Assembly: GCA_035536495.1 (NCBI GenBank)
Contig: DATLNY010000127.1
Coordinates: forward strand, 1 to 29,546
Length of the DNA: 29,546 nt
DNA from: Candidatus Saccharimonadia bacterium
GTDB taxonomy: Bacteria; Pseudomonadota; Gammaproteobacteria; Xanthomonadales; Ahniellaceae
Direction of reading: 5' to 3'
Shown: positions 3,568-16,253 of the stretch, piece after piece
Position numbering within the stretch: the first letter of the stretch is position 1
How the letters are laid out: each line of letters opens with the position of its first letter
Notes under the pieces: model-generated
The model's input: the letters and a program-made list of their open reading frames with translations, nothing else
Told to the model about the DNA's origin: nothing
Databases searched by the model: none
Position numbers and translations under genes: made by a program

Positions 3568-4119
3568 TCAGCCGACGAGCAGGCGCCAGAGCTGCGCGAG
3601 CGTCGCGAGCACGAAGCCCGCGAGGAAGAACAGGTACGACCAGCGCAGGTAGCGGTACTTGAAATGCGCGAGGTAGTAGCCGAGCGAATACAGATCCTTC
3701 GCCATCGTCTCGTAGATCGTCGAGCCCTCGGTCCGCATCTTCTCCGACACCTCGGCGAGGAAGCGCTCGCGCGGCAGCTCGGCGAAGTGCCCGAAGAACA
3801 GCAGGTTGAATTGCGGCGGCAACGGCGCGTCGGGCTTGAGGCGCAGCGGCCGGTACTTCGGCAGCACCGCTAGGATCGCGAGCAGCAGCGCGACGAGCGT
3901 GAAGACGGTCAGCGTGATCGCGCTGATCCGCAGGTCCTTGTCGTCCATGTTGCCGAACGACAGCGTCAGCACGATCGACGACACCGTGATGATGATGTTC
4001 GCCTTGACATCGGCCATCGCCGAAAGCTGCACGTGGTGCTGCTGGGCCGTGCGCAGGATGACGTCGGCGGTATTGCGCTCGGGGACCGTCCTGAACACGG
4101 GGCCGGGTTCGTCGCTCAT
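3568..4119 (-). CDS. Pycsar effector-family (DUF5706/PycTM-like) membrane protein
   Basis: Motif LRTAQQHHVQLSAMADVKANIIITVSSI, two TM helices, PxxxR...NLLFFGHF, and a C-terminal L...KYRYLRWSY followed by a TM helix. This is the pattern I recognise for DUF5706. Confidence 0.8.
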   Translation of the reverse strand: MSDEPGPVFRTVPERNTADVILRTAQQHHVQLSAMADVKANIIITVSSIVLTLSFGNMDDKDLRISAITLTVFTLVALLLAILAVLPKYRPLRLKPDAPLPPQFNLLFFGHFAELPRERFLAEVSEKMRTEGSTIYETMAKDLYSLGYYLAHFKYRYLRWSYLFFLAGFVLATLAQLWRLLVG

Positions 4120-4166
4120 GCGGGTTCGTCACGTGGATTCGACGCCGCATGATAGATAGGTGCGGC

Positions 4167-9968: not shown

Positions 9969-10625
9969 CTACTGGTCGAGGAACGGCAGGATCCGGATCG
10001 GGCGTGCCGCAAGCTCGATCTCGCGGTAAAGCGAGAGGTCGGGCTCGCGCATCACGATGACGCGCCCCTCGCGGTCGGGCACGAGCACGCGCTCGCCCGA
10101 GCCGCGCAGTGTCACGCCGCCGGTCTCGTCGTCGGCAAAGCGGAACTCGACGCCGCGCACGCGCGAGCGGGCGCGCTGCTGCACGAGCAGCGCGTCGGCC
10201 TCGGTGAGCGCGGTTTCGACATCGGCGGTCCGCACGATCGCGCCGCTCGGCTGGTGCAGCTCGACGCTGATCGTCAGCGTCAGCGATCCCTCGGGCTGGT
10301 TCGTCTCGACGACGGGATTCTCCGCGAGCAGCGCATCGTCCAGCGGCAGCGCGATCGTGCCGTCGTCGCCGACCGGAACCTCGATGCGTCCGCGCCGCGC
10401 GCGGATCGCGATGCCGATCGCGCGCGGCGCGACGCCGTCGCGCTTGCTCTCGATCCGCTGCACCGCGCGGAGCCTCGGGTACGCCGCGACCTCGCCCGCG
10501 GCGCCGAGCGCGCGGTGGATCACGGCGTATTCGATCTCGGCGGCGCGCACGACGCGCGCGTCGGCGATCGCGAGCGCGAGCGCGAGCGCGAGCAAGAGGC
10601 CTGCACCGATGCGCGGAGTCGACAT
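9969..10625 (-). CDS. Secreted hypothetical protein (DUF2987-like)
   Basis: Signal peptide (GAGLLLALALAIADA) and motif DGTIALPLDDALLAENPVVETNQPEG. The DUF assignment is from recall only. Confidence 0.65.
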   Translation of the reverse strand: MSTPRIGAGLLLALALALAIADARVVRAAEIEYAVIHRALGAAGEVAAYPRLRAVQRIESKRDGVAPRAIGIAIRARRGRIEVPVGDDGTIALPLDDALLAENPVVETNQPEGSLTLTISVELHQPSGAIVRTADVETALTEADALLVQQRARSRVRGVEFRFADDETGGVTLRGSGERVLVPDREGRVIVMREPDLSLYREIELAARPIRILPFLDQ

Positions 10626-10653
10626 GGACGAGGGGTCCCGATCGAAGGCTCGC

Positions 10654-10677
10654 ATTATGCCGCGCGGAGGTTATGAT
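10654..10677. promoter_or_regulatory. Back-to-back -10 elements for the divergent genes
   Basis: CATAAT on the minus strand (10654-10659) and TATGAT on the plus strand (10672-10677). Confidence 0.45.
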
Positions 10678-10713
10678 CCGCGCGGGCCCGTGTGGACGGG
10701 GACGAGGCACGAC

Positions 10714-11739
10714 ATGGCGCGCAGCCGCGGCATCGCAGAACCGTCCGCGCGCCCCGCCGACGAACCGGTCGTGCGCGCGCTGCTGCCGCGCCAGCTTTCG
10801 GACCCGGAGCTCGTGGTGTTCTCGCACGCGGGCGCGAAGCGCAACGTCGAGCGCGGCGAGCTGATCTTCCGCCGCGGCGAGCTCGGGCGCAGCATGTTCG
10901 TGATCGGGGACGGCCAGATCCGCCTCGAGTTCGGCAACGGCCTGTCCGACAAGGTGATCGGCGCGCGCGAATTCTTCGGCGAGCTCGCGCTGTTCATCGG
11001 CAACCACGCGCGCGTCGCGAGCGCGGTCGCGGTCGAGCGCTCGACCCTCTACGTCATCGAGCACGCCGCGTTCGAGCGGCTCCTCGGGCGCGAGCCCGGG
11101 CTGCTCGCGGCGTTCATGGTGCGCTCGTTCGCGTATCTCGTCGCGAGCGAACAGCAGCTGATCGCGAGCCTCAAGCGCCGCAACGAGGACCTGCTCGTCA
11201 CGATCGACTCGCTGCGCCAGACGCAATCGCAGCTGTCGGCGGCCGAGCGGCTCGTGCAGACCGACGAGCTGACCGGCCTGTGCAACCGGCGCGGCCTCTA
11301 CGGCTATCTCGATCGCCTCGCCGAGCAGCGCGTGCCCGGCACGCGGATCGGCCTGCTGCTCGTCGACATCGATCGCTTCAAGCAGATCAACGACAGCCAC
11401 GGCCACCTGATGGGCGACCAGGTGCTCCGCGCGATCTCGCAGGAAGTGCAGCAGGCGTGCTCGGCGTGCGACCTGCCGTGCCGGCTCGGCGGCGACGAGT
11501 TCGCGGTGCTCGCGCAGGTCGGCGACGCGGACGAGCTCGAGCTGCGGGCAGCGCAGCTCGTGCAGGGCGTGCGCTCGCTGCGGTTTCCGGAGCCGTTCCA
11601 GGACCTGCGCGTGACCGTCAGCGTCGGCGGCGCGCTCTGCGCGGAGTCCGGCGACTGGTCGGACTGGTACTCGACCGCCGACGTCTCCCTCTACCAGTCC
11701 AAGGGGACCGGCGGCGACGGATGGCGCGCCGATCGCTGA
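10714..11739 (+). CDS. cNMP-binding domain / GGDEF diguanylate cyclase
   Basis: cNMP domain with phosphate-binding cassette FFGELALF...HARVASA, coiled-coil linker, then TDELTGLCNRR, DIDRFKQINDSHGHLMGD and RLGGDEF. Start at ATG 10714 (GAGG RBS); the upstream part of the 10057 ORF is antisense to the neighbouring gene. Confidence 0.92.
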   Translation: MARSRGIAEPSARPADEPVVRALLPRQLSDPELVVFSHAGAKRNVERGELIFRRGELGRSMFVIGDGQIRLEFGNGLSDKVIGAREFFGELALFIGNHARVASAVAVERSTLYVIEHAAFERLLGREPGLLAAFMVRSFAYLVASEQQLIASLKRRNEDLLVTIDSLRQTQSQLSAAERLVQTDELTGLCNRRGLYGYLDRLAEQRVPGTRIGLLLVDIDRFKQINDSHGHLMGDQVLRAISQEVQQACSACDLPCRLGGDEFAVLAQVGDADELELRAAQLVQGVRSLRFPEPFQDLRVTVSVGGALCAESGDWSDWYSTADVSLYQSKGTGGDGWRADR

Positions 11740-11937: not shown

Positions 11938-14607
11938 TTGAGCGCTGCGATCGCACCACTGGGTACTCCCGCGGCGCGCCCCGTGCCGGCGCCCGCGCTG
12001 CGCACGCTCGTCGTCTGCGACTTGGTCGACTCGACCGCGCTCGTCGAGCGCATCGGCGACGCGCGCGCGCTCGCGCTGTTCCGCCGGCACGACCGCGCCG
12101 CGCGCGACCTCATCGCGAAGCGCCGCGGCCAGGAGATCGACAAGACCGACGGCTTTCTGCTGCTGTTCGACCGCCCGATCGAGGCGCTCGCGTTCGCGCT
12201 CGAATACCAGCGGCTGTTGCGCGAGCTCAGTCGCGACGAGCAGGTCGCGCTGAAGGCGCGCGTCGGCGTGCACGTCGGCGAAGTCGTCGTGTTCGAGAAC
12301 GCCGACGACGACGTGTCGCGCGGCGCGAAGCGCGTCGAGGTCGAGGGGCTCGTCAAGCCGGTCGCCGCGCGGCTGATGGGGCTTGCCCTGCCCGGCCAGG
12401 TGCTCGTCTCGGGCGTGCTGTTCGGCCTCACCCAGCGCGCCGATCCGGAGCTGCGCGCGGCATTCCCCGGCTTCGTCTGGAAATCGCACGGCCGCTACGC
12501 GTTCAAGGGCGTGCCTGCGCCGATGCAGGTCTACGAGATCGGCGAGCGGCCCGGCGCGCCGATGCTGAAGCCGGTGTCGACCGACAAGGCGTGGCGCGCG
12601 CGCCCGCTGTGGCTGCGCCCGCGTGCGCTGCTCGCCGAGCTCGCGGTCATCGTATTCGCGAGCGCGGTGGTCCTCTACGTCATGACGCGCACCGAGCCCG
12701 CGATCGCGTTCGCCGAGCGCGACTGGGTCGTGCTCGGCCACCTGCGCAACCTCACGAGCGAGCCTGTCTTCGACGGCTCGCTCGAGACGGCGTTGCGGAT
12801 CAGCCTCGACCAGTCACGCCACGTCAACCTCGTCCCGGAGCTCTCGACACGCCGCACGCTCGCGCGCATGCGCCGCCCCGAGGACGCCGTCGTCGACCGC
12901 GAGCTCGGCTCCGAGATCGCGGTGCGCGAAGGCGCCCGCGCGCTGATCCTGCCGACGATCGCCGAGGTCGGCGGGCGGCTGCGCGTCAGCCTCGAGGTCG
13001 TCGATCCCGCGACGCAGGCGACGGTCTATGCCGAGACGGCCGACGGCACAGGCCTCGATTCGGCGCTCGAATCGGTCGACACGGTCGCCGAGCGCCTGCG
13101 CGCGCGGCTCGGCGAGGCGACCGCCTCGATCGAGCGCGATTCGGCGCCGCTGCCGCAGGTGACGACCGCGAACCTCGATGCGTTGCGTGCGTACGCGCTC
13201 GCCGTGCAGCAGCAGGCGCGCAGCCGCTTCGACGAGGCGATCGCGCTCTACCGCCGCGCGCTCGAGCTCGATCCCGAATTCGCGCTCGCCGAAATGGGCC
13301 TCGCGCGGATCCACTTCAATGCGGACCAGTTCGCCGAGTCGCGTGTCTACCTCGATCGCGCGCTCGCCCACCGCGCGCGCCTGACGGCGCGCGATCGTGC
13401 GTATCTCGACGCGTGGCGGCACAACTTCGGCAACCCCGCCGACGCGATACGGCAGTGGCGGCTGATGTCGCAGATGTACCCCGACTATTTCGGCGCGCAC
13501 TACAACTACGCGTACCACGCGAGCCGCGCGGACACGCGCTATGCCGAAGCGCTCGAGGCGGCGGTCCGCGCGACCGACGAGCGCAACTCGTTCATCGCGT
13601 CGGCGTGGTACCTGCGCGGCGCGCTCGCGCTCGTGCTCGATCGCCACGACGACGCGCGTAGCGCGTTCGAGCATGCGATCGCGAACGGTGTCGGCGGCAC
13701 CGTGCTGCAGATCGCGCTCGCCCATGCGGCGCGGCGCGACTGGAGCGCGGCCGACCGACACATGTCGACCGCCGACCCGTCGGGCCTCTCCGCCGTCGAC
13801 GTGTTCGACCGCCGCGGGGAGATCTTGCGCGCGCTCGACCACGGCGACCTCGCCTCGGCCCGCGCTGCTGCGCTTCGAATCGCGCCCGAGGCCGCCGCGA
13901 TCTCGACGCTGCACGGCGACGTGTTCGAGACGAGCGCGGTTTCGCTCGACGCGCTCGCGCCGAGCGATGCCGGATCGGCGCGCCTCGAAGCGCTGCTCGA
14001 TCGCCAGCTCGCCGCGCTCGCGCGCCGCGACGGGCCGGGCAGCAGCGATGCCGCGTTCGCGATCGCCTACCTCGGCTATCTCGCGGCGCGCTCCGACCGG
14101 CCGATGCTCGCGCGCCGCGCGCTCGCGAGCGCCGCGGCGTCGCCCACCGATTTCGCCTACCCGAACGCCGAGCGCATGCTCGCGATCGTGCGCGCGCAGC
14201 TCGCGCTCGCCGATGGCGACGCCGACGCCGCGCACCGACATCTCGCGCCGCAGCTGCGCGGCGAGCCGCTCTACCTCGCGCACCGCGTATCGCTCGAGGC
14301 GTGGGCGGCAGCGGGCGACGCGAAGCGCGCGCTCGAGGAAGCGGCGTGGCTCGTGTCGCACCGTGGACGCGCGTACGGCGAGACGGTCGCGCTCGCGGCG
14401 CCGGTCACGCTCAACGTCGCCGAGGCGACGCTCGCGCACCTGCGTGCGGCGGAGCTCGCGCTCGCGATCGGCGATCGCGAACGCGCATCGAGCGAGCTCG
14501 CCGAGTTCGACCGAGCATGGCCTGCTGCGAAGACCGAGCCCGCGTGGTCGGACCGGCGCGAGTCGCTACGCGCGCGCGTCGCCGGAAGCGGCACCGCGGC
14601 GCGCTGA
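11938..14607 (+). CDS. Class III nucleotidyl cyclase - TM - TPR protein ('putative peptide modification system cyclase'-type)
   Basis: N-terminal CDLVDST, GQEIDKTDGFLLLF, RVGVHVGEV and VAARLM cyclase motifs; one TM helix (ALLAELAVIVFASAVVLYVM); alpha/beta domain (DWVVLGHLRNLTSEPVFD); TPR repeats (FDEAIALYRRALELDPEFALA). TTG start is uncertain. Confidence 0.88.
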   Translation: MSAAIAPLGTPAARPVPAPALRTLVVCDLVDSTALVERIGDARALALFRRHDRAARDLIAKRRGQEIDKTDGFLLLFDRPIEALAFALEYQRLLRELSRDEQVALKARVGVHVGEVVVFENADDDVSRGAKRVEVEGLVKPVAARLMGLALPGQVLVSGVLFGLTQRADPELRAAFPGFVWKSHGRYAFKGVPAPMQVYEIGERPGAPMLKPVSTDKAWRARPLWLRPRALLAELAVIVFASAVVLYVMTRTEPAIAFAERDWVVLGHLRNLTSEPVFDGSLETALRISLDQSRHVNLVPELSTRRTLARMRRPEDAVVDRELGSEIAVREGARALILPTIAEVGGRLRVSLEVVDPATQATVYAETADGTGLDSALESVDTVAERLRARLGEATASIERDSAPLPQVTTANLDALRAYALAVQQQARSRFDEAIALYRRALELDPEFALAEMGLARIHFNADQFAESRVYLDRALAHRARLTARDRAYLDAWRHNFGNPADAIRQWRLMSQMYPDYFGAHYNYAYHASRADTRYAEALEAAVRATDERNSFIASAWYLRGALALVLDRHDDARSAFEHAIANGVGGTVLQIALAHAARRDWSAADRHMSTADPSGLSAVDVFDRRGEILRALDHGDLASARAAALRIAPEAAAISTLHGDVFETSAVSLDALAPSDAGSARLEALLDRQLAALARRDGPGSSDAAFAIAYLGYLAARSDRPMLARRALASAAASPTDFAYPNAERMLAIVRAQLALADGDADAAHRHLAPQLRGEPLYLAHRVSLEAWAAAGDAKRALEEAAWLVSHRGRAYGETVALAAPVTLNVAEATLAHLRAAELALAIGDRERASSELAEFDRAWPAAKTEPAWSDRRESLRARVAGSGTAAR

Positions 14608-14673: not shown

Positions 14674-15867
14674 TCAACGATCGCGGGCGTCCGGCTCCAC
14701 CGGCCACGCGCGCGCGAGCGGATCGAATTCCGCGGTCGTCATCGCGTCGGCGCGCCTTCCGAAGCCGCAGACGGCGATGACGCCCTGCTCGAGCGGATCG
14801 AGCCCGAATGCAGCCTCGAGCTCGACTTCGTTGATCGCCGCCGTCACGAACGCGCCGATCCCGCGCTCGGCGCACGCGAGGTAAAGCGTCTGCACGATGC
14901 AACCCGCTTCGAGCAGGATCACGCGGTACGCCTTCGCGTGGTTGCGGTACTTCCAGAAGCAGCGTTCGAACCGCGCGGCGAGCACGACGAGCACGTCGGC
15001 ATCGGCCAGGAACGCCTGTCCAGCGACCGCGGTCGTTGCGAGCGCGTCGATCGGCGCCGAGCCCGCTTCGACCGGCTCCAGCGCGTGCGCGACCGGGTGA
15101 TAGTGGTACAGCCCGGCCGCGAGTCCTTCGATACGCCGCACGATCAGATACGCCTCGACCGGATGCAGCCCACCGCCCGAGGGCGTGTTCTTCTTGAGGA
15201 ACGCATGCCCGGGCTCGATCTCGACCGATGCGTGCGCGCGCAGCGTCCGATCGACGACGCGCGCGAAGTCGGCGGCCGAGAGCGCACCGCGGGTGGCGAA
15301 ATTCCGGCAGGTCGCGCGCGCGTGCAGCGTCGCGTCGAGCGCGTCGCGCTCGGGCTCGGCGAGCGCGATGCGATCCGCCGCGACGCCGCGCTCGAGCACG
15401 GCGACGGGCGGCGGTCCGAAGCGCTCGATCAGCTCGGCGAGCGATCGGGGCTGCGCGGCGAGATCGGCAGGCGTCCCGACGCCGCGCCAGCGCGAATACG
15501 CGTGCGCGACCGCCGAGAGCGGGCGCCAGTGCTGCGCGCGCTGGCGCGCGTCGAGGTCCGCAACGGCGGGATCGACGAACGATTCGCCCTCGCGGGCGAC
15601 GACGAGCCCGCACGCGACGAGCCGGTCGAGCGCCGCGCGCTCGTCCGCGTCGAATCGCGAAGCCGGCGACCACGCGTGCACTGGCAATCGCCCGAGCCGC
15701 ACGACGTCGGACTCGTCGAGCTCGTGTTCGCCGCCGAGATGCGGCGCGTACGCGACCCATGTGCGCTCGAACTCGACACCATCCCCGCCGGCGAGCAGCG
15801 CCTCGAGCGCGAAGCGCGGACGCTCGCGGGGTTCGACGAAGAGGCCCGCGCAGCGCCGGTAGTCCAT
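14674..15867 (-). CDS. SagB-like nitroreductase-fold putative peptide maturation dehydrogenase
   Basis: C-terminal SagB motifs RATCRNF, KNTPSGGGLHPVEAY, GLYHYHPVAHALE, FWKYRNHAKAYRVILLEAG; N-terminal extension ending LDRLVACGLVV, resembling a winged-helix RiPP recognition element. Confidence 0.9.
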   Translation of the reverse strand: MDYRRCAGLFVEPRERPRFALEALLAGGDGVEFERTWVAYAPHLGGEHELDESDVVRLGRLPVHAWSPASRFDADERAALDRLVACGLVVAREGESFVDPAVADLDARQRAQHWRPLSAVAHAYSRWRGVGTPADLAAQPRSLAELIERFGPPPVAVLERGVAADRIALAEPERDALDATLHARATCRNFATRGALSAADFARVVDRTLRAHASVEIEPGHAFLKKNTPSGGGLHPVEAYLIVRRIEGLAAGLYHYHPVAHALEPVEAGSAPIDALATTAVAGQAFLADADVLVVLAARFERCFWKYRNHAKAYRVILLEAGCIVQTLYLACAERGIGAFVTAAINEVELEAAFGLDPLEQGVIAVCGFGRRADAMTTAEFDPLARAWPVEPDARDR

Positions 15868-15944
15868 CGGCCGAGGCTATGCATTGTCGCGCCGTTCGGC
15901 AAATCGCTTAGACTTGAGCCCCGGCACAGGGAAGGGAGACCGCG

Positions 15945-16253
15945 ATGGCAACCACGCCGTACCACGTCGAACCGGAAGTCGTCGACAAGCTGCTGCACGA
16001 GCTGTCGACCAACGAAGCGTTCCGCAAGGAGTTCCTCGTCGATTATTTCGGCGCGCTCAAGCGCCTCGGCCACAAGCCGCCGGCCGATCGCCTCGACGGC
16101 CCGCTCTGCAAGGACCCGGATCAGCCGCTAGCGCCGATGAGCGAGATCGCCGCCGCGCGCGAGATGCTGCGCACCGAGTACTCGGCGGGGCTCCAGTTCC
16201 AGCAGAACCTGCTCGTGTCGCCGGTGGGCCGCAAGCGCGACAGCGCGTTCTGA
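15945..16253 (+). CDS. NHLP-related putative RiPP precursor peptide (102 aa)
   Basis: VVDKLLHELSTNEAFRKEFLVDYFGALKRLG matches the nitrile-hydratase-leader pattern (L..L..D..FR..F..DP..AL..G), then LAPMSEIAAAREML. Strong GGAGA RBS and an upstream TAGACT -10; divergent from the dehydrogenase. Confidence 0.85.
   Translation: MATTPYHVEPEVVDKLLHELSTNEAFRKEFLVDYFGALKRLGHKPPADRLDGPLCKDPDQPLAPMSEIAAAREMLRTEYSAGLQFQQNLLVSPVGRKRDSAF

What the first reader, a model, noticed from the sequence alone, without database searches (positions are those of the whole stretch)
12019..12375. Non-canonical active site in the class III cyclase domain
Seen, by manual alignment: both metal-binding Asp are kept (D28 in CDLVDST, D71), but the usual KxxGD is GQEIDKTDG. 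That is one residue shorter, with an acidic D68 at the purine-specifying Lys position. The second specificity position is E134, and the transition-state N-x-x-x-R is K140-P141-V-A-A-R145 (Asn replaced by Pro, Arg kept). Established: Lys/Asp selects ATP, Glu/Cys selects GTP, and pyrimidine cyclases of Pycsar carry other residues at these sites. Inference: this is not a standard adenylate cyclase. It may make cGMP or a pyrimidine cNMP, with K140 possibly compensating for the lost Asn.
Basis: partly seen in the sequence, partly recalled or inferred. Interest (0 to 1): 0.65.

Follow-up and report, generated by a model that had tools for sequence, protein, structure and literature searches.

The report
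Receptor-type guanylate cyclase, XC_0250 family
The odd active site is real, but it is the conserved signature of a known family: its Xanthomonas counterpart (XC_0250) makes cyclic GMP, which switches on the neighbouring c-di-GMP synthase.

Summary
In ORF 11938-14607(+), D28 and D71 sit at the metal positions. D68 sits at the purine-specifying Lys position, on a hairpin one residue shorter than usual. E134 is at the second specificity position, P141 replaces the catalytic Asn, and R145 is kept. Profile alignment to solved cyclases and a confident AF2 model agree.

These residues are not a local oddity. They are near-invariant in 262 homologues.

The protein is NCBIfam TIGR04510 ("putative peptide modification system cyclase", 849.9 bits, cut-off 400). 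It is colinear with Xanthomonas orthologues of XC_0250. An et al. 2013 reported that the XC_0250 cyclase domain converts GTP to cGMP and has no activity on ATP.

The upstream gene (10714-11739) is the XC_0249 counterpart, a cNMP-binding diguanylate cyclase. It keeps four of the five mutation-tested cGMP contacts (F73, E90, H98, E146). It occurs only in genomes that carry the cyclase (33 of 37 versus 0 of 114).

So the cGMP reading is supported by orthology. The pyrimidine reading is not. This is a new member of a known kind.

One point is left open. The published catalytic-residue map of XC_0250 (D41, A150, L157, A161) disagrees with the structure-guided map found here.

An earlier follow-up of this scan made the same family link on another genome (e1-3937607).

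The parts
11938..14607 (+). Whole gene: a single-pass receptor-type class III cyclase of the TIGR04510 / XC_0250 family. The start is the TTG at 11938 or the GTG at 11983.
   Evidence: TIGR04510 849.9 bits, cut-off 400. 43% identity over 843 aa to the X. arboricola XC_0250 orthologue P0371.
11989..12552 (+). Cytoplasmic cyclase homology domain (residues about 18-205).
   Evidence: AF2 pLDDT 95.5. Foldseek: Ma1120 TMt 0.89, Rv1900c 0.85. Profile versus PDB: Ma1120 7.7e-24. Pfam Guanylate_cyc scores only 14.6 bits, below its cut-off.
12019..12021 (+). D28, first metal-binding Asp (end of beta1).
   Evidence: Aligned to the 'FTD' Asp of Ma1120 and Rv1900c. Conserved in 261 of 262.
12139..12150 (+). 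D68-K69-T70-D71. D68 is at the Lys (first specificity) position. The beta2-beta3 hairpin is one residue short. D71 is the second metal Asp.
   Evidence: D68 261 of 262; position 69 is K in 234 and R in 27; D71 261 of 262. D71A abolished XC_0250 activity.
12337..12339 (+). E134, second specificity position.
   Evidence: Aligned to Ma1120 D157. 248 Glu, 11 Asp, 3 Asn of 262.
12355..12360 (+). K140-P141. Pro is at the transition-state Asn position, preceded by an invariant Lys.
   Evidence: P141 aligns to Ma1120 A164 and the Rv1900c His. K140 260 of 262; P141 243 of 262.
12370..12372 (+). R145, the retained transition-state Arg.
   Evidence: Aligned to Ma1120 R168. 262 of 262.
12505..12507 (+). 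K190 in the 'FKG' motif, the likely triphosphate-binding Lys of the beta7-beta8 region.
   Evidence: 239 of 262 Lys; G191 conserved in 261 of 262, the remaining sequence gapped. The role is inferred from the general class III pattern (own knowledge).
12625..12693 (+). The single transmembrane helix (residues about 230-252). The positive cluster before it puts the cyclase domain in the cytoplasm.
   Evidence: This is the only hydrophobic peak outside the cyclase domain (a weaker one, 1.81, lies in alpha4 at about residue 146); Kyte-Doolittle 19-residue window, maximum 2.47. K217, R220, R222, R227 and R229 lie upstream.
12694..14604 (+). Extracytoplasmic region with TPR repeats. It is the presumed sensor.
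   Evidence: Pfam TPR_1, TPR_19 and others from residue 414. Colinear with XC_0250 orthologues.
10714..11739 (+). XC_0249 counterpart: a cNMP-binding domain plus a GGDEF diguanylate cyclase. It is the likely receptor of the cyclase's product.
   Evidence: Pfam cNMP_binding 63.3 bits and GGDEF 113.2 bits. 5h5o (XC_0249 cNMP domain) 1.4e-24. F73, E90, L91, H98 and E146 are kept; N145 is Ser. Co-occurrence and adjacency.
14674..15867 (-). SagB-related dehydrogenase of the same cassette.
   Evidence: TIGR04511 486.9 bits, cut-off 240.
15945..16253 (+). NHLP-related RiPP precursor of the same cassette.
   Evidence: TIGR04509 46.1 bits, cut-off 34.

Best explanation
The gene encodes a membrane-anchored receptor-type guanylate cyclase of the Xanthomonas XC_0250 family (NCBIfam TIGR04510).

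Inferred mechanism:
- The N-terminal cytoplasmic class III domain works as a homodimer.
- D28 and D71 hold the two metal ions.
- R145 and K190 handle the triphosphate and the transition state.
- D68 (on a hairpin one residue shorter than usual) and E134 form an acidic pair at the two base-specifying positions. They accept hydrogen bonds from guanine N1-H and N2-H2, so GTP is used and ATP is not.
- P141 in place of the canonical Asn is tolerated, as Ala is in the related active cyclase Ma1120.
- The cGMP made binds the cNMP domain of the upstream gene product, the XC_0249 counterpart. That raises its GGDEF activity and c-di-GMP synthesis.
- The extracytoplasmic TPR region is the presumed input domain.

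Shown for the orthologue only: GTP-to-cGMP activity of residues 1-220, no adenylate cyclase activity, loss of activity in D71A, and cGMP binding and activation of XC_0249.

Inferred here: that this protein does the same, and the roles of D28, D68, E134, K140, P141 and R145.
For: - Family membership: TIGR04510 849.9 bits.
- Fold: AF2 pLDDT 95.5, and the best fold matches are class III cyclases.
- Orthology to XC_0250: NCBI Xanthomonas proteins P0352 (886 aa, the length given for XC_0250), P0371, P0384 and P0385 carry exactly D41, D71, L73, A150, L157 and A161, the six residues An et al. name.
- Colinearity: P0001 aligns to P0371 without a gap from residue 16 to 255, with identical numbering, and 43% identity over 843 aa. 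Stenotrophomonas and Xanthomonas orthologues keep D28, D68, R69, S70, D71, E134, E136, G137, K140, P141 and R145.
- Biochemistry of XC_0250 and XC_0249: PMC3770947.
- Partner gene, phyletic pattern: the XC_0249 counterpart was found in 33 of the 37 genomes of the order that have the cyclase, and in 0 of the 114 without it.
- Partner gene, adjacency: it lies directly upstream on the same strand in 26 of 36 genomes and in 55 of 75 further loci.
- Partner gene, residues: four of the five mutation-tested cGMP contacts are kept, including guanine-binding E146.
- Chemistry: in class III guanylate cyclases the acidic residue at the Lys position, binding guanine N1/N2, is the main specificity determinant (PMC7384201).
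- Purifying selection: the active-site residues are among the 21 most conserved of 188 columns.
Against: - No assay exists for this protein. The inference rests on one laboratory's study of an orthologue with about 57% identity in the cyclase domain. I found no independent replication in the library.
- The authors' own residue map (D41 as a metal ligand, A150 for specificity, L157 and A161 in place of Asn and Arg) differs from mine. Two of their positions differ here (L157 is Val, A161 is Leu).
- The receptor's O6-binding N145 is Ser in this clade.
- The nearest solved relatives are adenylate cyclases.
- No coordinates were available, so I could not see whether D68 or the invariant K69 faces the base.
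Confidence: 0.8

Rival explanations
1. It is an adenylate cyclase, or a cyclase of relaxed purine specificity, whose non-canonical residues are simply tolerated, as in Rv1900c and Ma1120.
For: The closest solved relatives by sequence and by fold are the mycobacterial adenylate cyclases Ma1120 and Rv1900c. Ma1120 is active without the catalytic Asn. Rv1900c carries Asn and His at the Lys and Asn positions in the alignment. From my own knowledge (Sinha et al. 2005), Rv1900c stays an adenylate cyclase.
Against: The XC_0250 domain had no activity on ATP. Two carboxylates at the base positions cannot donate to adenine N1. The co-inherited receptor's orthologue prefers cGMP about 60-fold, and its guanine-binding Glu is kept here.
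Confidence: 0.07
2. It is a pseudo-cyclase: a nucleotide-binding or dimerising module that signals without catalysis.
For: The Lys, Asp and Asn of the canonical hexad are all replaced. Pfam's cyclase model scores below its threshold.
Against: Both metal Asp, the Arg and the 'FKG' Lys are kept. The substituted positions are themselves near-invariant across 262 sequences and several architectures. The orthologue is catalytically active. A dedicated cNMP receptor is co-inherited.
Confidence: 0.05
3. It is a pyrimidine (cCMP or cUMP) cyclase related in function to Pycsar PycC, possibly feeding the PycTM protein encoded at 3568-4128.
For: The specificity residues are non-canonical. A PycTM-family gene lies 8 kb away (PF18967 80.7 bits; PADLOC PycTM).
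Against: The cyclase domain hits no PADLOC PycC model. No PycC structure is among the 50 best fold matches. The PycTM gene is separated from the cyclase by several unrelated genes (esterase, AhpC/AhpD-type genes, oxyR, apt). No PycTM gene appears in the gene tables of the three related loci fetched with gene calls. The conserved partner is a cGMP-type receptor.
Confidence: 0.03
4. As the NCBIfam name might suggest, the protein acts on the neighbouring RiPP-like peptide (a peptide 'cyclase') rather than on a nucleotide.
For: It is always found with TIGR04509 and TIGR04511.
Against: The only enzyme-like domain is a class III nucleotidyl cyclase fold with intact metal and phosphate ligands. The rest is a TM helix and TPR repeats. 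The name comes from homology to nucleotide cyclases, not from peptide chemistry (inference).
Confidence: 0.03

Closest known systems
Xanthomonas campestris XC_0250 guanylate cyclase with its partner XC_0249 (An et al. 2013, EMBO J 32:2430, PMC3770947)
   Same: The architecture is the same: N-terminal class III domain, then a TPR region. The proteins are colinear with identical numbering in the cyclase domain. The residues at all canonical active-site positions match. A cNMP-GGDEF gene lies directly upstream. The same peptide and dehydrogenase genes lie downstream in Xanthomonas and Stenotrophomonas relatives.
   Different: Identity is 43% overall and about 57% in the cyclase domain. Position 69 is K rather than R, 70 is T rather than S, and 73 is F rather than L. 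The published positions L157 and A161 are V and L here. The receptor has Ser rather than Asn at 145 and 'RVA' rather than 'RSA' in the phosphate-binding cassette. In this window the peptide-dehydrogenase pair is inverted relative to other loci.
NCBIfam TIGR04510 / TIGR04509 / TIGR04511 cassette ('putative peptide modification system')
   Same: All three models score above their cut-offs on adjacent genes.
   Different: The curated name says nothing about cGMP. NCBI records call the Xanthomonas XC_0250 orthologues 'putative peptide modification system cyclase'.
Mycobacterium avium Ma1120 and M. tuberculosis Rv1900c adenylate cyclases (PDB 4wp9, 5d0g, 1ybt)
   Same: These are the best sequence and fold matches. 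They share the 'EST/DST' phosphate loop, the 'ERIGD' motif, the lack of the canonical Asn, and the retained Arg.
   Different: Ma1120 has the Lys/Asp pair and makes cAMP. Its beta2-beta3 hairpin is one residue longer. The arm between beta4 and beta5 is shorter.
Canonical class III guanylate cyclases (Glu plus Cys/Ser/Thr/Gly; for example RhGC, sGC, Cya2)
   Same: An acidic residue sits at the Lys position. Both metal Asp and the Arg are kept. The fold is shared.
   Different: The acidic residue is Asp rather than Glu and sits on a shortened hairpin. The second position is Glu rather than a small or thiol residue. The catalytic Asn is replaced by Pro.

Membership tests
NCBIfam TIGR04510 (mod_pep_cyc) | Full-length HMM score above the curated cut-off (400 bits) | tested here: met
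   849.9 bits, model positions 2-813 of 814.
NCBIfam TIGR04510 (mod_pep_cyc) | Adjacent TIGR04511 dehydrogenase and TIGR04509 peptide | tested here: met
   486.9 bits (cut-off 240) and 46.1 bits (cut-off 34) on the next two genes.
XC_0250-type guanylate cyclase | Colinear homology to XC_0250 orthologues over the cyclase, TM and TPR regions | tested here: met
   43% identity over 843 aa to P0371, which carries the six-residue XC_0250 fingerprint.
XC_0250-type guanylate cyclase | Adjacent XC_0249-type cNMP-GGDEF gene | tested here: met
   Gene at 10714-11739, about 200 bp upstream on the same strand. Adjacency and co-occurrence are conserved.
XC_0250-type guanylate cyclase | The six residues shown by mutation to be needed in XC_0250 (D41, D71, L73, A150, L157, A161) | tested here: inconclusive
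   D41, D71 and A150 are identical. L73 is F, L157 is V and A161 is L here. In the family, position 73 is F in 225 of 262 and position 161 is A in 224 of 262.
XC_0250-type guanylate cyclase | GTP-to-cGMP activity with no ATP turnover | not testable with these tools
   Reported only for XC_0250 residues 1-220.
Canonical class III adenylate cyclase | Lys and Asp at the two base-specifying positions | tested here: not met
   D68 and E134.
Canonical class III adenylate cyclase | Two metal Asp and the Asn...Arg transition-state pair | tested here: inconclusive
   D28, D71 and R145 are present. The Asn is replaced by P141.
Canonical class III guanylate cyclase | Glu at the Lys position and Cys/Ser/Thr/Gly/Ala/His at the second position | tested here: not met
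   Asp and Glu instead.
Pycsar PycC pyrimidine cyclase | Match to PycC models and an adjacent effector gene | tested here: not met
   No PADLOC hit for residues 1-230. The PycTM gene is 8 kb away with unrelated genes between.

The most novel reading that the evidence does not exclude
The Asp68/Glu134 pair on a one-residue-shorter hairpin, with Pro at the Asn position, may be a distinct and so far unrecognised way of selecting GTP. It would define a large guanylate cyclase clade: 627 clusters at 50% identity with E<1e-30. That clade is also fused to Ser/Thr kinases and to NACHT/AAA-TPR modules. If so, the published catalytic map of XC_0250 would need revision, and bacterial cGMP signalling would be much more widespread than current annotation ('peptide modification system cyclase', no Pfam hit) suggests.
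Probability: 0.45. Interest if true: 0.55.

Novelty: new member of a known kind. Interest (0 to 1): 0.3.

Why it matters
For this gene the answer is ordinary. It is a further member of a family whose Xanthomonas representative is a proven cGMP synthase feeding a cGMP-activated diguanylate cyclase.

Two things are still useful. First, public annotation hides the function. NCBI calls these proteins 'putative peptide modification system cyclase', and Pfam's cyclase model misses them. Linking the name to the 2013 biochemistry lets hundreds of Lysobacterales loci be read as cGMP modules.

Second, the only published residue map for the family does not fit the structure-guided alignment. The true guanine determinants, probably D68 and E134, have never been mutated. 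They also recur in kinase- and NACHT-fused proteins of unknown function.

Tried and rejected
- Literature search for the TIGR accessions or 'peptide modification system cyclase' found nothing. A search on NHLP, SagB, adenylate cyclase and TPR gave one irrelevant paper.
- The Biol Direct 2016 paper on 'uncharacterized nucleotide cyclase-like proteins' concerns DUF2652, not this family.
- An exact search for the 'DKTDG' motif failed in Stenotrophomonas and Xanthomonas loci, because the motif there is 'DRSDG'. An alignment resolved it.
- I first read 'RRNED' as the N145-E146 diad of the receptor. Mapping through 5h5o (offset 22) showed the diad is 'SE' at residues 145-146.
- The Pycsar link was rejected: there is no PycC model hit and the PycTM gene is not adjacent.
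- Residue-level structural superposition was not possible, because the tools return no coordinates. Whether D68 or K69 faces the base stays open.
- Searches for an independent replication, or for a correction notice to An et al. 2013, found none in the library.
Full report
**What is there**

The window is 65-74% G+C. The ORF 11938-14607(+) encodes 889 aa counted from a TTG. The database gene call starts 15 codons later.

Pfam sees only TPR repeats above threshold. Its cyclase model scores 14.6 bits against a cut-off of 21.9. NCBIfam TIGR04510, 'putative peptide modification system cyclase', scores 849.9 bits against a cut-off of 400.

The protein has one transmembrane helix at about residues 230-252. 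A cluster of Lys and Arg before it places the N-terminal domain in the cytoplasm and the TPR region outside.

**Is the alignment right?**

phmmer, and a profile built from 141 homologues, both pick the mycobacterial adenylate cyclases Ma1120 (E 7.7e-24) and Rv1900c (2.2e-22) as the best solved relatives. The alignments give these equivalences:
- D28 aligns with the beta1 metal Asp.
- D68 aligns with Ma1120 K101 and with the Asn of Rv1900c. One gap falls before D71.
- D71-G72-F73 align with the 'DGF' of the second metal Asp.
- E134 aligns with Ma1120 D157.
- P141 aligns with Ma1120 A164 and with the His of Rv1900c.
- R145 aligns with Ma1120 R168.

The Ma1120 paper confirms that K101 and D157 specify the substrate, that A164 stands where the Asn usually is, and that R168 is the conserved Arg. 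It also reports that A164N drastically reduces adenylate cyclase activity and abolishes the guanylate cyclase side-activity (PMC4215837).

An AF2 model of residues 1-230 is confident, with pLDDT 95.5 and pTM 0.89. Beta2 ends at D68, the turn is K69-G72, beta3 is 73-77 and helix alpha4 is 139-149. Its best Foldseek matches are Ma1120 (TMt 0.89) and Rv1900c (0.85), followed by CyaB, CyaC, Cya2 and sGC. No PycC entry is in the top 50.

One thing could not be settled, because no coordinates are returned: whether D68 or the neighbouring, nearly invariant K69 points at the base.

**Is it a local oddity?**

No. In 120 close homologues, and then in 262 sequences that include cluster representatives at 50% identity, the counts are as follows:

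| Position | Conservation (of 262) |
|---|---|
| D28 | 261 |
| D68 | 261 |
| K69 | 234 K, 27 R |
| D71 | 261 |
| G72 | 262 |
| E134 | 248 E, 11 D, 3 N |
| E136 | 260 |
| G137 | 262 |
| K140 | 260 |
| P141 | 243 |
| R145 | 262 |

Only 21 of 188 domain columns reach 99% conservation, and D28, D68, D71, K140 and R145 are among them. K190 of the 'FKG' motif is kept in 239 of 262.

The exhaustive search found 627 clusters with E<1e-30. Some of them carry the same domain fused to Ser/Thr kinases or to NACHT/AAA modules with TPRs.

**Neighbours**

- Directly upstream, at 10714-11739(+), lies a cNMP-binding plus GGDEF protein.
- Downstream lie a SagB-related dehydrogenase (TIGR04511, 486.9 bits) on the minus strand and an NHLP-related peptide (TIGR04509, 46.1 bits).
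- The cNMP-GGDEF gene sits in the same place in Dokdonella soli and in two metagenomic contigs. Two of these loci carry tandem cyclase-peptide-dehydrogenase cassettes.

In 151 genomes of the order, 37 have the cyclase above cut-off. The cNMP-GGDEF orthologue (E<=1e-50) is found in 33 genomes, and all 33 are among those 37. None of the 114 genomes without the cyclase has it. It lies directly upstream on the same strand in 26 of 36 genomes and in 55 of 75 further loci. Several of the remaining loci are second cassettes of a tandem array. Related genomes are not independent samples, but the pattern is patchy across families.

**Identification with a characterised system**

This gene pair is the one studied in Xanthomonas campestris by An et al. 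2013 (PMC3770947). They reported:
- XC_0250 (886 aa) is a cyclase domain plus TPRs.
- Purified residues 1-220 convert GTP to cGMP and have no activity on ATP.
- XC_0249 (cNMP plus GGDEF) binds cGMP with Kd 0.29 uM, against 17.9 uM for cAMP, and is activated by it.
- A crystal structure shows contacts through F73, E90, H98, N145 and E146.

I tested the link by sequence. Stenotrophomonas and Xanthomonas genomes carry the same four-gene module. NCBI Xanthomonas proteins annotated 'putative peptide modification system cyclase' (P0352, 886 aa; P0371; P0384; P0385) have exactly D41, D71, L73, A150, L157 and A161, the six residues named for XC_0250.

P0001 aligns to P0371 at 43% identity over 843 aa. 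The alignment is gapless from residue 16 to 255 with identical numbering. These orthologues keep D28, D68, R69, S70, D71, E134, E136, G137, K140, P141 and R145.

The upstream protein aligns to PDB 5h5o. The contact residues named in the paper fall into register at an offset of 22, which identifies 5h5o as the XC_0249 cNMP domain. In its own numbering, the window's protein has F73, E90, L91, H98 and E146. N145 is Ser. GGDEF is intact, and the RxxD inhibitory site is absent ('SACD').

**Mechanism**

The most likely reading is a receptor-type guanylate cyclase. In class III guanylate cyclases, the acidic residue at the Lys position binds guanine N1/N2 and is the main determinant of specificity (PMC7384201). 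Here that residue is Asp on a hairpin one residue shorter, and a second carboxylate (E134) sits at the other base position. Two acceptors fit guanine's two donors and cannot serve adenine N1 (inference).

Loss of the Asn is not an obstacle, as Ma1120 shows. The product would act on the co-inherited cGMP-type receptor and so on c-di-GMP synthesis. The role of the TPR region, and any link to the neighbouring peptide and dehydrogenase, remain conjecture.

**Disagreement with the literature**

An et al. predicted the active site from an alignment with distant proteins. They named D41 and D71 as metal ligands and A150 as substrate-specifying, and they wrote that the Asn and Arg are replaced by L157 and A161.

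The profile alignment and the predicted structure instead place the first metal Asp at D28, the specificity positions at D68 and E134, and a conserved Arg at R145. D41 belongs to the 'ERIGD' motif that Ma1120 shares (Rv1900c has 'ALGD'). It is probably structural (inference). Positions 157 and 161 vary in the family, and they differ in this protein. D28, D68, E134, K140, P141 and R145 have not been mutated in any member.

**Alternatives**

- Adenylate or mixed-specificity cyclase: disfavoured by the orthologue's assay and by the receptor.
- Pseudo-cyclase: disfavoured by the retained metal and phosphate ligands and by strict conservation.
- Pyrimidine cyclase: no PycC model hit, and the PycTM gene at 3568-4128 is not adjacent.
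- Peptide-modifying enzyme: no domain for such chemistry.

**Caveats**

- The functional inference rests on one study. I found no independent replication in the library.
- The PDB code given in the paper (4KG1) does not appear in the copy searched, where the same sequence is entry 5h5o.
- This protein itself has not been assayed.

**Verdict**

This is a new member of a known kind, with modest interest. An earlier follow-up of this scan reached the same family link on another genome (e1-3937607).

Noticed in passing
window 3568-4128 (-): A PycTM-family membrane protein (PF18967 80.7 bits; PADLOC PycTM 54.3 bits) has no cyclase next to it. The genome holds two other class III cyclase genes, on contigs C280 and C341, that pass Pfam's threshold.
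   Followed up: partly
P0214, P0244, P0246, P0260, P0203, P0207, P0131 (representatives): The same cyclase-domain variant, with the D..D / E.EG..KP...R motifs, is fused to Ser/Thr protein kinases with TPRs, or to NACHT/AAA_16 with TPRs, in other bacteria. P0131 carries two copies. These may be unrecognised guanylate cyclases.
   Followed up: partly
L009 6001-14655; L010 336-10259; G052 and G046: Two or three cyclase-peptide-dehydrogenase cassettes stand in tandem behind a single cNMP-GGDEF gene. One copy in G052 has an in-frame TAG.
   Followed up: no
window 14674-16253: The dehydrogenase is on the minus strand and the peptide on the plus strand here. In Dokdonella, Stenotrophomonas and other loci the order is cyclase(+), peptide(-), dehydrogenase(+). 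The pair is inverted in this genome.
   Followed up: no
window 10714-11739, residues 145 and 100-102: The guanine O6-binding Asn145 of XC_0249 is Ser, and the phosphate-binding cassette reads 'RVA' rather than 'RSA', in this protein and the three Dokdonella-type orthologues aligned with it. The six Xanthomonas/Stenotrophomonas-type sequences aligned keep 'NE' and 'RSA'. The GGDEF inhibitory site RxxD is absent ('SACD').
   Followed up: partly
PDB 5h5o versus PMC3770947: The paper names PDB code 4KG1 for the XC_0249 cNMP domain. The PDB copy searched holds that sequence only as 5h5o. The entry may have been replaced.
   Followed up: no
NCBI records of Xanthomonas and Stenotrophomonas: Orthologues of the characterised guanylate cyclase XC_0250 are all named 'putative peptide modification system cyclase'. 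The cGMP function is not reflected in annotation.
   Followed up: yes
window 9969-10670 (-) and 10057-11739 (+): The long plus-strand frame upstream of the cNMP-GGDEF gene overlaps a minus-strand ORF with better codon statistics and a weak DUF2987 hit. The GGDEF gene most likely starts at 10714, as in its orthologues.
   Followed up: partly
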